Assembly (NCBI RefSeq): GCF_055900595.2
Contig: NZ_CM148325.1
DNA: 64,000 bases
Strand: one strand, 5' to 3'
Program-made: the position numbers and the translations under genes
Notes under the pieces: generated by a model
Database searches by the model: none
Seen by the model: the letters and a program-made list of their open reading frames with translations, nothing else
What the model was told of the DNA's origin: nothing
Part shown: positions 25,032 to 63,278 of the stretch, in pieces
How the letters are laid out: every line of letters starts with the position of its first letter
Numbering within the stretch: the stretch's first letter is position 1

Positions 25032-25048
25032 CATGGAAGGGCAGGGAT

Positions 25049-25234
25049 GTGAAAAGTGCAGACGTGATCGCCATCCTGAAGCAGCATGGCTGGGAACATA
25101 TTCGAACCCGTGGTAGTCATCATCAGTTCCGCCACCCTGTCCATCCGGGTCTGGTGACGGTTCCGCACCCTAAAAAAGATATTAAGCCCGGTACGCTGGC
25201 GCAAATTGGGCGTCAGGCTGGTTTAACATTTTAA
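25049..25234 (+). CDS. hicA: HicA-family toxin (61 aa)
   Basis: GTG start; small basic protein with RGSHH and PHP-KDIKPGTL-I-RQAGL motifs; 16 bp upstream of the antitoxin gene. Confidence 0.8.
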   Translation: MKSADVIAILKQHGWEHIRTRGSHHQFRHPVHPGLVTVPHPKKDIKPGTLAQIGRQAGLTF

Positions 25235-25250
25235 AATTTCAGGAGGCAAT

Positions 25251-25661
25251 ATGTTTTATCCCGCCTATATCCACAGTGATCCTGACGGCAGCGCCAGCGG
25301 TTTTTTCCCTGATGTTCCAGGCTGTTATTTTGCTGGTGATACGCTGGACAACGCTTTCCAGGATGCGCGAAGTGCACTGGTCGCGCACTTCGAAACCTTA
25401 TGCGAGATGAATGAAGAGTTGCCGCTTCCAGGCTCTGTGGAAACACATCTGGTCCAGCGTGCGCAGGACTTTATTGGCGGGCAATGGTTGCTGGTGGATA
25501 TCAATATGAATCAGTTCGAAGGTCGGGCTGAACGTATCAATATTACGATGCCGAAAAGATTACTGAACAAGATTGATACCTACGTGCGCAATAACCCAGA
25601 CTACGCCAACAGAAGTGCGTTTCTGGCGGAAGCTGCCCGGCGTGTATTGCCGGGCGTTTAA
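25251..25661 (+). CDS. hicB: HicB-family antitoxin with C-terminal ribbon-helix-helix DNA-binding domain (136 aa)
   Basis: Strong SD aggagg 7 nt upstream; C-terminal RHH-like segment NRSAFLAEAARRVL. Confidence 0.8.
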   Translation: MFYPAYIHSDPDGSASGFFPDVPGCYFAGDTLDNAFQDARSALVAHFETLCEMNEELPLPGSVETHLVQRAQDFIGGQWLLVDINMNQFEGRAERINITMPKRLLNKIDTYVRNNPDYANRSAFLAEAARRVLPGV

Positions 25662-60334: not shown

Positions 60335-62404
60335 ATGTCTGAGAAAACTTTTCTGGTGGAAATCGGCACTGAAGAGCTGCCACCAAAAGCACTGCGCAGC
60401 CTGGCTGAGTCCTTTGCTGCGAACTTTACTGCGGAGCTGGATAACGCTGGCCTCGCACATGGCACCGTTCAATGGTTTGCTGCTCCGCGTCGTCTGGCGC
60501 TGAAAGTAGCTAACCTGGCGGAAGCGCAACCGGATCGTGAAATCGAAAAACGCGGCCCGGCGATTGCCCAGGCGTTCGACGCTGAAGGCAAACCGAGCAA
60601 AGCGGCAGAAGGCTGGGCGCGTGGTTGCGGTATTACCGTTGACCAGGCTGAGCGTCTGACTACCGATAAAGGCGAATGGCTGCTGTATCGCGCCCACGTG
60701 AAGGGCGAAAGCACTGAAGCACTGTTGCCGAATATGGTTGCGACTTCGCTGGCGAAACTGCCGATCCCGAAACTGATGCGTTGGGGTGCAAGCGACGTGC
60801 ACTTCGTGCGTCCGGTGCACACCGTGACCCTGCTGCTGGGCGACAAAGTTATTCCGGCTACCATTCTGGGCATTCAGTCCGATCGCGTGATTCGCGGCCA
60901 CCGCTTTATGGGCGAGCCGGAATTCACTATCGACAATGCTGATCAGTATCCGGAAATTTTGCGTGAGCGCGGGAAAGTCATCGCCGATTACGAAGAACGT
61001 AAGGCGAAGATTAAAGCCGATGCCGAAGAAGCGGCGCGTAAGATTGGCGGTAACGCTGACTTAAGCGAAAGCCTGTTGGAAGAAGTCGCTTCGCTGGTGG
61101 AATGGCCGGTTGTGCTTACCGCAAAATTCGAAGAGAAATTCCTCGCGGTGCCGTCTGAAGCGCTGGTTTACACCATGAAAGGTGACCAGAAATACTTCCC
61201 GGTGTATGCGAACGACGGCAAACTGCTGCCGAACTTTATCTTCGTTGCCAATATCGAATCGAAAGATCCGCAGCAAATTATCTCTGGTAACGAGAAAGTC
61301 GTTCGTCCACGTCTGGCGGATGCCGAGTTCTTCTTCAATACCGACCGTAAAAAACGTCTGGAAGATAATCTGCCGCGCCTGCAAACCGTGCTGTTCCAGC
61401 AACAACTGGGTACGCTGCGCGACAAAACTGACCGCATTCAGGCGCTGGCTGGCTGGATTGCTGAACAGATTGGCGCTGACGTGAATCATGCCACCCGTGC
61501 GGGCCTGCTGTCTAAGTGTGACCTGATGACTAACATGGTCTTCGAGTTCACCGACACTCAGGGCGTTATGGGGATGCACTACGCGCGTCACGATGGCGAA
61601 GCGGAAGATGTTGCCGTGGCGCTGAACGAGCAGTATCAGCCGCGCTTTGCCGGTGATGACCTGCCGTCTAACCCAGTGGCTTGTGCGCTGGCGATTGCTG
61701 ACAAGATGGATACTCTGGCGGGTATCTTCGGTATCGGCCAGCATCCGAAAGGCGACAAAGATCCGTTTGCGCTGCGTCGTGCCGCACTTGGCGTGCTGCG
61801 TATTATCGTTGAGAAGAACCTCAATCTTGACCTGCAAACCCTGACCGAAGAAGCAGTGCGTCTGTATGGCGATAAGCTGACTAATGCCAACGTGGTTGAT
61901 GATGTTATCGACTTTATGCTCGGTCGCTTCCGCGCCTGGTATCAGGACGAAGGTTACACCGTTGACACCATCCAGGCGGTACTGGCGCGTCGTCCGACTC
62001 GTCCGGCTGATTTCGATGCCCGAATGAAAGCGGTATCGCACTTCCGTACCCTGGATGCAGCTGCAGCACTGGCGGCGGCGAACAAGCGTGTATCTAACAT
62101 TCTGGCGAAATCTGACGAAGTGCTGAGCGACCGCGTGAATGCCTCTACTCTGAAAGAGCCGGAAGAAATTAAACTGGCGATGCAGGTTGTGGTGCTACGT
62201 GACAAGCTAGAGCCGTACTTTGCTGAAGGTCGTTACCAGGATGCGCTGGTCGAACTGGCTGAGCTGCGTGAACCGGTTGATGCCTTCTTCGATAAAGTGA
62301 TGGTCATGGTTGATGACAAAGAATTGCGAATCAACCGTCTTACCATGCTGGAGAAACTGCGCGAATTATTCCTGCGAGTTGCGGATATTTCGCTGTTGCA
62401 GTAA
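60335..62404 (+). CDS. glyS: Glycine--tRNA ligase beta subunit
   Basis: 689-aa ORF recognised as GlyS. Confidence 0.97.
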
Positions 62405-62420
62405 TAACGTCGTTATTAAA

Positions 62421-62447
62421 AAGCCTGCCATCTGGCAGGCTTTTTTA
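62421..62447 (+). terminator. Intrinsic terminator of glyQS
   Basis: aagcctgcca-tc-tggcaggc hairpin followed by TTTTTT. Confidence 0.8.
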
Positions 62448-62725
62448 TCGCTAAATAATAGAGCAACCTTTAATAATCTTCTGCTGAATAAAGATTGTCT
62501 CATATATTAATTTTATGAGATTTTTTTAGGATTATATCAAGGAGAAGAAACGAACTTATTAAACTAGAATAGCTGCGGGTGCTTGAGACTGTTTGTCTCA
62601 GGTATTCACCGAAAGGCAGACAGAGAAAAGCCCCACCTGACTATAAATCAAAGTGAGGCTACCCTATGCCTGAACACCATAAGGTTAGCCTCTTACTCGT
62701 TGGAAATCAACACAGGAGGCTGGGA

Positions 62726-62878
62726 ATGCCGCAGAAATATAGATTACTTTCTTTAATAGTGATTTGTTGCACGCTTTTATTTTTCACCTGGATGATAAGA
62801 GATTCACTGTGTGAATTGCATATTAAACAGGGGAGTTATGAGCTGGCGGCATTTTTAGCCTGCAATTTGAAAGAGTAA
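62726..62878 (+). CDS. hokA: Hok-family small membrane toxin (50 aa); in-frame upstream extension from 62666 corresponds to mokA
   Basis: MPQKYRLLSLIVICCTLLFFTWMIRDSLCELHIKQGSYELAAFLACNLKE is a typical Hok toxin; SD aggagg at 62714..62719; the 70-aa ORF from 62666 is the Mok-type overlapping frame. Confidence 0.8.
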   Translation: MPQKYRLLSLIVICCTLLFFTWMIRDSLCELHIKQGSYELAAFLACNLKE

Positions 62879-62886
62879 GAGTCTTC

Positions 62887-62912
62887 GGCGGGAAGTTATT
62901 CCCGCCTTTCTT
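62887..62912 (+). terminator. 3' hairpin of the hokA transcript
   Basis: ggcgggaa-gtta-ttcccgcc followed by tttctt. Confidence 0.5.
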
Positions 62913-63003
62913 ACGGCGTTGCGCATTCTCATTGCACCCAAATTTATTTTTCACAAAAATAATAATAGATTTTATTACGCGATCGATTATTTATTTCCTG
63001 AAA

Positions 63004-63040
63004 AACAAATAAAAAAATCCCCGCCAAATGGCAGGGATCT
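63004..63040 (-). terminator. Intrinsic terminator of cspA
   Basis: Minus-strand hairpin (atccctgcc/ggcggggat) followed by a long U-run. Confidence 0.75.
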
Positions 63041-63065
63041 TAGATTCTGTGCTTTTAAGCAGAGA

Positions 63066-63278
63066 TTACAGGCTGGTTACGTTACCAGCTGCCGGGCCTT
63101 TAGCGCCGCTTTCGATGGTGAAGGACACTTTCTGACCTTCGTCCAGAGATTTGTAACCATCGTTCTGGATAGCAGAGAAGTGTACGAACACGTCTTTAGA
63201 GCCATCGTCAGGAGTGATGAAGCCGAAGCCTTTGTCAGCGTTGAACCATTTTACGATACCAGTCATTTTACCGGACAT
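63066..63278 (-). CDS. cspA: Major cold-shock protein CspA
   Basis: 70-aa [73 protein letters not shown]. Confidence 0.97.

What the first reader, a model, noticed from the sequence alone, without database searches (positions are those of the whole stretch)
62405..62915. hokA/mokA toxin locus next to glyS with no IS element beside it
A Hok-family 50-aa toxin ORF with a strong SD, an in-frame upstream mok-type extension, a leader hairpin (gagactgtttgtctc at about 62585) and a 3' hairpin (62887..62912) are all present, and no IS element is present in the window. As I recall, K-12 hokA is inactivated by an IS150 beside it, so here the locus may be functional. The antisense sokA RNA should be encoded opposite the mok start region but cannot be delimited by eye.
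Basis: partly seen in the sequence, partly recalled or inferred. Interest (0 to 1): 0.5.

Follow-up and report, generated by a model that had tools for sequence, protein, structure and literature searches.

The report
Intact hokA/sokA toxin-antitoxin locus, already known

Summary
Window 62565-62951 holds a complete hok/sok-type type I toxin-antitoxin locus between glyS and cspA. It has:
- a 50-aa Hok/Gef toxin (Pfam E 4.7e-22)
- an in-frame mokA
- a hok-type mRNA leader (Rfam RF01794, 124 bits against a threshold of 59)
- a 5' metastable hairpin
- a 3' protective hairpin
- a delimitable ~52-nt antisense sokA with its own promoter.

No IS element is present. K-12 does carry IS150, but inside the locus rather than beside it, together with a 39-bp deletion that removes the mokA start and the sokA -10 box.

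The IS-free state is not unusual. Of 5,426 complete E. coli genomes, 2,800 have it, 1,644 have the K-12-type IS150 lesion, and 904 have a second IS150 insertion about 40 bp away.

The window's allele differs at only six positions in the transcription unit from E. coli C hokA/sokA. That is the IS-free locus characterised by Pedersen & Gerdes (1999). Later papers report that it has all the regulatory elements yet did not mediate post-segregational killing or rifampicin-induced killing. So "may be functional" is only partly supported: the sequence is intact, and killing activity is unproven. Already known, low interest.

The parts
62565..62570 (+). Probable hokA -10 box (TAGAAT, 5/6 consensus), 6 nt before the transcript start. 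There is no good -35, so the promoter is weak.
   Evidence: It aligns with the TATGAT -10 of the R1-type plasmid hok (alignment A1). The generic promoter scan did not flag it because the -35 is poor. Inferred, not shown.
62577..62951 (+). Full-length hokA (mokA-hokA) mRNA, about 375 nt. The 5' end is set by homology. The 3' end is inferred from the fbi element plus the U-tract.
   Evidence: Rfam RF01794 model position 1 falls at 62577. The fold is -138.9 kcal/mol, z -7.4, with the 5' and 3' ends paired. The same geometry is seen in the R1-type control.
62577..62588 (+). tac element (GGGUGCUUGAGA), the 5' end of the mRNA. It pairs with fbi in the full-length RNA and with ucb in the truncated RNA.
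   Evidence: Pair probability is 1.00 with fbi in the full-length RNA and 0.62 with ucb in the truncated RNA. There are compensatory changes against the R1-type locus: GGGUGC/GCACCC versus GGCGC/GCGCC.
62578..62606 (+). Metastable 5' hairpin of the nascent transcript.
   Evidence: dG -15.6, z -5.9. It is homologous to GAGGC-UUUCU-GCCUC of the R1-type locus, with an A-U to G-C compensatory change. The role is as described for R1 in PMC9841398.
62628..62636 (+). ucb, the anti-SD of mok (AAGCCCCAC). It pairs with the mok SD in the full-length RNA and with tac in the truncated RNA.
   Evidence: AGCCCC is invariant between hokA and the R1-type locus.
62624..62675 (-). sokA antisense RNA, about 52 nt. 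It has a 10-nt single-stranded 5' tail, a long hairpin and a UUUUCUCU tail. It is complementary to the mok SD and start region.
   Evidence: The fold has the same architecture as the R1-type Sok. The published sokA target length is 52 bp (PMC3562002). The ends are inferred from the promoter and terminator geometry.
62682..62710 (-). sokA promoter: -35 TTGATT (62710-62705), a 17-nt spacer, and -10 TAACCT (62687-62682).
   Evidence: The spacing and position relative to the mok ATG match the R1-type Sok promoter, TTGCGC-17-TATCCT. It is invariant in all 9 intact E. coli loci sampled. The generic scan did not flag it.
62655..62658 (+). mok Shine-Dalgarno (GAGG).
   Evidence: It is sequestered by ucb in the full-length RNA, pair probability 0.97. 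GAGGC is invariant against the R1-type locus.
62666..62878 (+). mokA ORF, 70 aa, in frame with hokA. It carries the YUNR-like CUGA at 62670-62673 in the Sok-recognition region.
   Evidence: The YUNR reading is inference from established knowledge of R1 hok/sok.
62714..62719 (+). hokA Shine-Dalgarno (AGGAGG). It is buried in a long helix with the 3' part of the coding region in both the full-length and truncated folds.
   Evidence: Most of its bases (139 and 141-143) are paired, with unpaired probability 0.00-0.04; A138 and G140 are predicted unpaired (0.97-0.98). E. coli C and most other alleles have AGGGGG here.
62726..62878 (+). hokA toxin gene, 50 aa. It is identical to RefSeq WP_001135727.1.
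   Evidence: Pfam HOK_GEF E 4.7e-22. RefSeq annotates the 100%-identical locus as hokA. Cys29 and Cys46 are present.
62887..62912 (+). GC-rich 3' hairpin plus UUUCUU.
   Evidence: dG -16.0 and terminator-like in the scan. It is homologous to the terminal stem of R1 Tr-hok mRNA, where mutations destabilise the RNA (PMC9841398).
62927..62939 (+). fbi, the fold-back inhibition element (UCUCAUUGCACCC), which pairs with tac.
62940..62951 (+). U-rich tract (AAAUUUAUUUUU) after fbi, the probable 3' end of the full-length mRNA.
   Evidence: By analogy with the UUUAUAAA that follows fbi in the R1-type locus. Inferred.

Best explanation
This is the IS-free allele of the chromosomal E. coli hokA/mokA/sokA type I toxin-antitoxin locus, and it has every cis element of the plasmid R1 hok/sok paradigm.

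Predicted mechanism:
1. A weak promoter makes a ~375-nt mRNA starting at 62577.
2. While the RNA is being made, a 5' hairpin (62578-62606) keeps the 5' end occupied.
3. In the finished RNA the 5' end (tac) pairs with fbi at 62927-62939. The anti-SD box ucb (62628-62636) then covers the mokA ribosome-binding site. The RNA can neither be translated nor bind SokA.
4. Slow 3' trimming back to the stable hairpin at 62887-62906 removes fbi. tac then captures ucb, and the mokA start region is exposed.
5. At that point one of two things happens. The ~52-nt antisense SokA (62675 to 62624, minus strand) pairs with the exposed region and the duplex is destroyed. Or, if SokA is gone, mokA is translated, which opens the buried hokA SD, and the 50-aa membrane toxin is made.

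Shown here: the sequence elements, their homology and covariation with an R1-type locus, and the predicted structural switch.
Inferred: the transcript ends, the processing step, SokA expression, and killing.

On published evidence for the near-identical E. coli C allele, the locus is probably kept silent under laboratory conditions and does not act as an addiction module.
For: Identity:
- Pfam HOK_GEF E 4.7e-22.
- Rfam RF01794 at 124 bits against a gathering score of 59.
- The 661-bp locus is 100% identical to a RefSeq locus annotated as hokA.
- The glyS-hokA-cspA-yiaG synteny is the same as in K-12 and E. coli C.

Structure:
- In the full-length fold the 5' and 3' ends pair, z -7.4.
- Pair probabilities in the full-length RNA are tac-fbi 1.00 and ucb-SDmok 0.97. 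In the truncated RNA tac-ucb rises from 0.00 to 0.62.
- The metastable hairpin has z -5.9.
- SokA folds as a 5' tail plus hairpin plus U tail, like the R1-type Sok.

Covariation with the R1-type plasmid locus:
- tac/fbi is GGGUGC/GCACCC versus GGCGC/GCGCC.
- The metastable hairpin is GAGAC/GUCUC versus GAGGC/GCCUC.
- The tac-stem is CUGUUUGUCU/AGGCAGACAG versus GCUUUCUGCC/GGCAGAAAG.

Conservation: the sokA promoter, ucb, the mok SD and fbi are invariant or nearly so in 9 intact loci from diverse strains.

Literature:
- The mechanism for R1 is described in PMC9841398.
- hokA/sokA of E. coli C is described as a standard hok homologue (PMC3562002).
- HokA is toxic on overexpression (bioRxiv 10.1101/2025.08.07.668861).
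Against: - There are no expression data for this strain.
- The generic sigma-70 scan flags neither the hokA promoter nor the sokA promoter. The sokA -10 (TAACCT) is one match weaker than R1's TATCCT.
- For the R1-type positive control, the MFE of the truncated RNA does not show the tac-ucb stem. Thermodynamic prediction alone therefore cannot prove or disprove the switch.
- The IS-free E. coli C allele is reported not to give post-segregational killing or rifampicin-induced killing. At least one step, such as promoter strength, processing rate or relative RNA stabilities, may differ from R1.
Confidence: 0.85

Rival explanations
1. Because it lacks the IS, this copy is a fully active killer module: loss of SokA (transcription arrest, loss of the locus, phage shut-off) would lead to HokA synthesis and cell death, as for plasmid R1 hok/sok.
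For: - All cis elements are intact.
- The window has the consensus hok SD AGGAGG, where E. coli C has AGGGGG.
- The HokA peptide is toxic on overexpression.
- Recurrent IS150 disruption in 47% of genomes could mean the intact locus is costly. hok/sok homologues are reported to lie near mobile-element insertion hotspots (bioRxiv 10.1101/527788).
Against: - The IS-free E. coli C locus differs at only 6 positions in the transcription unit. It is reported not to mediate PSK and not to be rifampicin-activated.
- The IS-free allele is stably carried by 52% of complete genomes.
Confidence: 0.15
2. The locus is intact in sequence but dead in regulation. It is a decaying remnant in which transcription of hokA, or 3' processing, is too weak for the toxin ever to be made, and it persists only by drift.
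For: - The hokA promoter has no recognisable -35.
- Some alleles carry -10 changes (TAGAAT to TGGAAT at 62566), a lost stop codon (ECOR29), a 1-nt deletion that shifts the mok frame, or an fbi mismatch.
- The PSK and rifampicin results for E. coli C were negative. The authors of that work suggested that chromosomal hok loci are inactive.
Against: - The structural elements are conserved with almost no substitutions in helices across diverse phylogroups.
- Only 3-4 amino-acid polymorphisms are seen in HokA, and both cysteines are kept.
- Weak promoters are normal for hok genes (established knowledge of R1 hok/sok).
Confidence: 0.25
3. The ORF and hairpins are a chance occurrence in an AT-rich intergenic spacer.
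For: None beyond the small size of the ORF.
Against: Pfam E 4.7e-22, Rfam E 1.3e-29, fold z -7.4, and presence in 5,425 of 5,426 complete E. coli genomes at the same site.
Confidence: 0.01

Closest known systems
hokA/mokA/sokA of E. coli C (Pedersen & Gerdes 1999, Mol Microbiol 32:1090; genome record NZ_CP020543.1, 346202-346354)
   Same: - It sits at the same chromosomal site (glyS-hokA-cspA) and has no IS.
- 62577-62716 is identical, which covers tac, the metastable hairpin, ucb, the mok SD and start, sokA and its promoter.
- fbi and the 3' hairpin are the same, and the predicted pair probabilities are identical.
   Different: There are six differences in the transcription unit:
- A (window) versus G at 62717, giving AGGAGG versus AGGGGG as the hok SD.
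- Cys15 versus Phe15 in HokA (62769).
- One synonymous change (62869).
- A substitution plus a 1-nt indel at 62921-22, between the hairpin and fbi.
- T versus C at 62949 in the terminal U tract.

There are also three differences just upstream of +1 (62563, 62574-75).
hok/mok/sok of plasmid R1 and related IncF plasmids (control locus L012, whose Hok is 100% identical to the R1 Hok sequence I supplied from memory)
   Same: - The order and spacing of all elements match: -10, tac, metastable hairpin, ucb, mok SD, mok, antisense promoter (17-nt spacer, about 14 nt after the mok ATG), hok SD, hok, 3' hairpin, fbi and U tract.
- Both match Rfam RF01794, at 124 and 87 bits.
- Both give a full-length fold with paired ends.
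   Different: - It is chromosomal and was never found on plasmids (0 of 8,027 places).
- The leader is 18 nt shorter.
- The toxin sequences are highly diverged (HokA 50 aa versus R1 Hok 52 aa; identity not measured).
- The sokA -10 is TAACCT rather than TATCCT.
- R1 mediates PSK, and the E. coli C hokA allele reportedly does not.
hokA::IS150 of E. coli K-12
   Same: The hokA ORF and 3' region are 98% identical and the flanks are the same. The hok SD is AGGAGG in both.
   Different: - K-12 has a 1.44-kb IS150 in the minus orientation between window positions 62654 and 62694.
- K-12 lacks the 39 bp in between (mok SD, mok ATG, sokA 5' end and -10), and there is no target-site duplication.
- K-12 HokA has Phe15, Glu36 and Lys47 where the window has Cys15, Gly36 and Asn47.

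Membership tests
[quoted passage not shown] | A ~50-aa hydrophobic toxin that matches the Hok/Gef profile | tested here: met
   Pfam PF01848 HOK_GEF, E 4.7e-22, model positions 1-42 of 42.
[quoted passage not shown] | The two conserved cysteines (Cys29 and Cys46 in the HokA/HokB numbering) needed for the disulfide | tested here: met
   Both are present in the translated ORF. HokA is stated to encode both cysteines without RNA editing.
[quoted passage not shown] | An overlapping upstream mok reading frame with its own SD, to which hok translation is coupled | tested here: met
   ATG at 62666 with GAGG at 62655-58, open through hokA. Most of the hok SD (4 of 6 bases) is predicted to be paired in both RNA forms. 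The coupling itself cannot be tested here.
[quoted passage not shown] | A conserved hok mRNA leader structure | tested here: met
   Rfam RF01794, 124 bits against a gathering score of 59, full model 1-157, on the hok-sense strand.
[quoted passage not shown] | A 5'-3' fold-back (tac/fbi) that locks the full-length mRNA | tested here: met
   GGGUGC.UGAGA pairs with UCUCA..GCACCC, probability 1.00. There is a compensatory U-A versus C-G change relative to the R1-type locus.
[quoted passage not shown] | A metastable 5' hairpin, and a tac-ucb refolding once the 3' end is removed | tested here: met
   The hairpin has dG -15.6, z -5.9. tac-ucb probability goes from 0.00 in the full-length RNA to 0.62 in the truncated RNA. 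This is prediction only, and the R1-type control MFE did not show the stem.
[quoted passage not shown] | A cis-encoded antisense Sok RNA with its own promoter, overlapping the mok translation-initiation region | tested here: met
   TTGATT-17-TAACCT lies on the minus strand in the same position as the R1-type Sok promoter. The predicted 52-54-nt RNA has a free 5' tail, a hairpin and a U tail. Expression was not tested.
[quoted passage not shown] | 3' exonucleolytic processing of the mRNA, an unstable Sok, and killing when Sok decays (PSK or rifampicin induction) | not testable with these tools
   This needs experiments. For the near-identical E. coli C allele the literature reports no PSK and no rifampicin activation.
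Orthologue of E. coli hokA (glyS-cspA intergenic locus) | The same chromosomal position and high nucleotide identity to annotated hokA loci | tested here: met
   5,425 of 5,426 complete genomes match (95-100% identity in 5,408 of them, 90-95% in 17), all on chromosomes. The flanking genes are glyS, cspA and yiaG.
K-12-type inactivated hokA (IS150-disrupted) | IS150 between the mokA start and hokA, with loss of 39 bp | tested here: not met
   The window is continuous across 62620-62730, and there is no IS150 anywhere in the window.

The most novel reading that the evidence does not exclude
In 47% of complete E. coli genomes the locus is cut by IS150 at one of two junctions about 40 bp apart, in a way that disables hokA expression and sokA together. 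This may reflect recurrent selection against an intact, conditionally active hokA/sokA, rather than only a preferred IS150 target site. On that reading the IS-free allele here, with the consensus AGGAGG hok SD and the rare Cys15 toxin variant, would be a live module with a cost or a function (for example abortive infection or persistence) that the 1999 PSK and rifampicin assays missed.
Probability: 0.1. Interest if true: 0.35.

Novelty: already known. Interest (0 to 1): 0.1.

Why it matters
It matters little as a discovery. IS-free hokA/sokA loci have been known since 1999 (E. coli C) and were noted again in AIEC strain NRG857c (PMC7232551). RefSeq already annotates this exact toxin.

The useful results are practical. 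The K-12 lesion is defined precisely as IS150 plus a 39-bp deletion. The three allelic states are counted across 5,426 genomes: 52% intact, 30% K-12-type, 17% with a second IS150 insertion.

If someone wanted to revisit whether chromosomal hok loci are ever active, this allele would be a reasonable candidate to test, because it has a consensus hok SD.

Tried and rejected
- The generic sigma-70 scan found neither the hokA nor the sokA promoter. I placed both by homology to the R1-type locus instead, so they remain inferred.
- The primary paper (Pedersen & Gerdes 1999) is not held. Its results are cited second-hand.
- The searches 'hokA + IS150' and 'hokA + sokA' returned mostly irrelevant papers.
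- A base-by-base comparison of the window with NZ_CM128600.1 failed because of indels in an adhesin gene. BLAST resolved it. The window is not that strain (98.4-99.6% identical) but has the same gene order.
- I considered that the 62887-62906 hairpin plus T tract is the true terminator, so that fbi would never be transcribed. I rejected this as the primary reading. The R1-type locus has the same hairpin-plus-U arrangement upstream of its fbi, and in R1 that stem is the 3' end of the processed RNA, not of the primary transcript. Only 3'-end mapping can exclude it.
- The weak Rfam hits at 62352-62511 (STnc370, leader families) are all below gathering score and fall on the glyS terminator hairpin, so I dismissed them.
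- MFE folding of the truncated R1-type control did not reproduce the tac-ucb stem. I therefore do not treat the window's predicted switch as proof.

Full report
**What is there**

The end of the window is the E. coli segment glyQ-glyS (+), a 320-bp spacer, a 50-codon ORF (+), cspA (-) and yiaG (-). The ORF at 62726-62878 translates to MPQKYRLLSLIVICCTLLFFTWMIRDSLCELHIKQGSYELAAFLACNLKE. It is preceded by AGGAGG at 62714-62719. An in-frame ATG at 62666, with GAGG at 62655-62658, gives a 70-aa mok-type frame. The 70-aa product matches Pfam HOK_GEF over the whole model, E 4.7e-22. Rfam RF01794 ('sok') matches 62577-62728 on the plus strand at 124 bits, against a gathering score of 59, E 1.3e-29. 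That match runs from the mRNA 5' end to the hok AUG, so in practice it scores the hok mRNA leader.

**Identity and context**

A megablast of 62405-63065 against 5,426 complete E. coli genomes finds the locus in 5,425. All hits are on chromosomes, none on plasmids, and the gene is annotated hokA. One genome, NZ_CM128600.1, is 100% identical over the 661 bp, and its toxin is RefSeq WP_001135727.1. The window is collinear with that genome at 98.4-99.6% identity, apart from repeat variation in a YadA-like adhesin gene. No transposase is annotated in the corresponding 64 kb, and IS150 gives no BLAST hit in the window. The 'no IS in the window' claim therefore holds.

**The K-12 comparison**

In K-12 the window aligns at 62300-62654 and again at 62694-63100, with 1,444 bp of IS150 between. 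The 39 bp at 62655-62693 are missing and there is no target-site duplication. Those 39 bp hold the mok SD, the mok ATG, the 5' part of sokA and the sokA -10 box. However, the IS lies inside the locus, cutting hokA off from its promoter, leader and mok start, and it destroys the sokA promoter.

A second class of genomes, for example L002, has IS150 in the opposite orientation. It is inserted after 62653 with a clean AAG duplication.

Junction-specific searches give the following counts:

| State of the locus | Genomes | Share |
|---|---|---|
| Intact core | 2,800 | 51.6% |
| K-12-type junction | 1,644 | 30.3% |
| Second IS150 junction | 904 | 16.7% |
| Other | about 78 | — |

The IS-free state is thus the commonest state.

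**Anatomy by homology and folding**

I fetched an IncFII plasmid locus whose Hok is 100% identical to the R1 Hok sequence I supplied from memory. It also matches RF01794, at 87 bits. The alignment lines up these elements:

| Element | Window (hokA) | R1-type plasmid locus |
|---|---|---|
| -10 box | TAGAAT | TATGAT |
| Transcript start and tac | GGGTGCTTGAG | GGCGCTTGAGG |
| Metastable hairpin | GAGAC..GTCTC | GAGGC..GCCTC |
| ucb | AGCCCC | AGCCCC |
| mok SD | GAGGC | GAGGC |
| Antisense promoter | AGGTTA..17 nt..AATCAA | AGGATA..17 nt..GCGCAA |
| 3' hairpin | GGCGGG..CCCGCC TTT | GGCGGG..CCCGCC TTT |
| fbi | GCACCC | GCGCC |

The differences in tac/fbi, in the metastable hairpin and in the tac-stem are compensatory.

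Folding 62577-62951 gives -138.9 kcal/mol, z -7.4. Nucleotides 1-6 and 8-12 pair with 62927-62939, and the mok SD is paired to ucb. Boltzmann pair probabilities are:

| Pairing | Full-length RNA | Truncated RNA (62577-62912) |
|---|---|---|
| tac-fbi | 1.00 | fbi removed |
| ucb-SDmok | 0.97 | 0.36 |
| tac-ucb | 0.00 | 0.62 |

The hok SD is largely paired in both forms: four of its six bases have an unpaired probability of 0.04 or less. This is the switch described for R1 (PMC9841398).

**sokA**

On the minus strand, TTGATT (62710-62705), a 17-nt spacer and TAACCT (62687-62682) sit in the same position relative to the mok ATG as the R1-type Sok promoter. A start near 62675 and an end in the UUUUCUCU tract near 62624 give an RNA of about 52 nt. 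It has a 10-nt free 5' tail and one long hairpin, the same architecture as the plasmid Sok. The length matches the 52-bp target reported for sokA (PMC3562002). These ends are inferred.

**Is it functional?**

No disabling lesion was found on alignment to the R1-type locus or across nine intact E. coli loci. In those loci the sokA promoter, ucb, the mok SD and (with one exception) fbi are invariant.

The literature already covers this state. E. coli C carries an IS-free hokA/sokA (PMC3562002). I located it in NZ_CP020543.1. It is identical to the window across 62577-62716 and differs at six positions in the transcription unit. These include G for A at 62717, so the window has the stronger AGGAGG SD, and Phe15 for Cys15. 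Its predicted pair probabilities are identical to the window's.

That E. coli C locus, like hokB of K-12 and hokC of ECOR24, is reported not to mediate post-segregational killing and not to be rifampicin-activated. HokA peptide, by contrast, is toxic when overexpressed (bioRxiv 10.1101/2025.08.07.668861 summarising Pedersen & Gerdes 1999). The K-12 copies are described as inactivated by IS elements, point mutations or rearrangements (PMC2654758). An IS-free hokA was also noted in AIEC strain NRG857c (PMC7232551).

The locus is therefore intact in sequence, and there is no evidence that it kills.

**Verdict**

It is a member of the hok/sok family by every sequence-level criterion I could test, and an orthologue of the hokA already characterised in E. 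coli C. Novelty: already known. Interest: low.

The one mildly interesting angle is that IS150 disrupts the sokA/mokA overlap at two nearby junctions in 47% of genomes. This is consistent with the published observation that hok/sok homologues lie near mobile-element insertion hotspots (bioRxiv 10.1101/527788).

Noticed in passing
window 62651-62694; L001 1057-2500; L002 1060-2500: IS150 has hit the sokA/mokA overlap in two ways. One is a simple insertion in the + orientation with an AAG duplication at 62651-62653 (904 genomes). The other is the K-12-type, in the - orientation, with its left junction 1-2 bp from the first, a 39-bp deletion and no target duplication (1,644 genomes). The nearly identical left junction suggests a preferred IS150 target, with the K-12 form arising by a secondary IS-mediated adjacent deletion. 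The number of independent events was not determined.
   Followed up: partly
window 62660-62673 (compare L004, L005, L008-L010): A second common intact allele (O157:H7 and others) differs at 6-7 clustered positions between the mok SD and mok codon 3: CUACCCUAUGCCUGA becomes CCCCUCUAUG(C/U)AUAGA. This changes Mok codons 2-3 and removes the YUNR-like CUGA that the window shares with the R1-type plasmid locus in the Sok-recognition region. In the O157:H7 allele the predicted tac-ucb probability in the truncated RNA drops to 0.12.
   Followed up: partly
L007 (ECOR29) at window-equivalent 62877; L006 at 62725 and 62934: Some IS-free alleles carry point lesions. ECOR29 has lost the hokA stop codon (TAA to TTA) and is annotated as a pseudogene. 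Strain uk_P46212 has a 1-nt deletion just before the hokA ATG, so mok stops 9 codons into hokA, and it also has a G-to-A change in fbi.
   Followed up: partly
window 62855-62926 (-): A 23-codon ORF (MRNAVRKAGITSRRRLLLFQIAG) lies antisense to the hokA 3' end and 3' hairpin. It corresponds to the K-12 gene annotated ysaE (protein YsaE) and to 'hypothetical protein' in other RefSeq records.
   Followed up: no
window 62498-62527 (+): An AT-rich inverted repeat (TCTCATA ... TATGAGA) followed by seven T lies 50 nt upstream of the hokA start and downstream of the strong glyS terminator (62420-62449). It may be a second, weak terminator that insulates hokA from glyS read-through, or a protein-binding site.
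   Followed up: no
L011 (NZ_CP069973.1) 697-1150, equivalent to an insertion near window 62950: One strain has about 390 extra bp between hokA and cspA. They carry a CDS annotated 'yidD: membrane protein insertion efficiency factor' and start right at or after the fbi/U-tract region.
   Followed up: no
window 62577-62728 (+): Rfam family RF01794, named 'sok antitoxin', matches the hok-sense strand and ends on the hok AUG, both here and in the plasmid control. In practice it models the hok mRNA leader, not the antisense RNA. There was no minus-strand match at E up to 1.
   Followed up: partly
window about 25048-25660 (+) and about 4750-9330 (-): By collinearity with NZ_CM128600.1, the window also carries a HicA/HicB type II toxin-antitoxin pair between aldB and yiaW. 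It also carries a large YadA-like adhesin gene whose internal repeats differ between the window and that genome.
   Followed up: no
window 63066-63278 (-): The cspA gene (Rfam cspA thermoregulator, 450 bits) is named cspE in several RefSeq records and cspA in others, although the protein accession is the same. This is an annotation inconsistency only.
   Followed up: no
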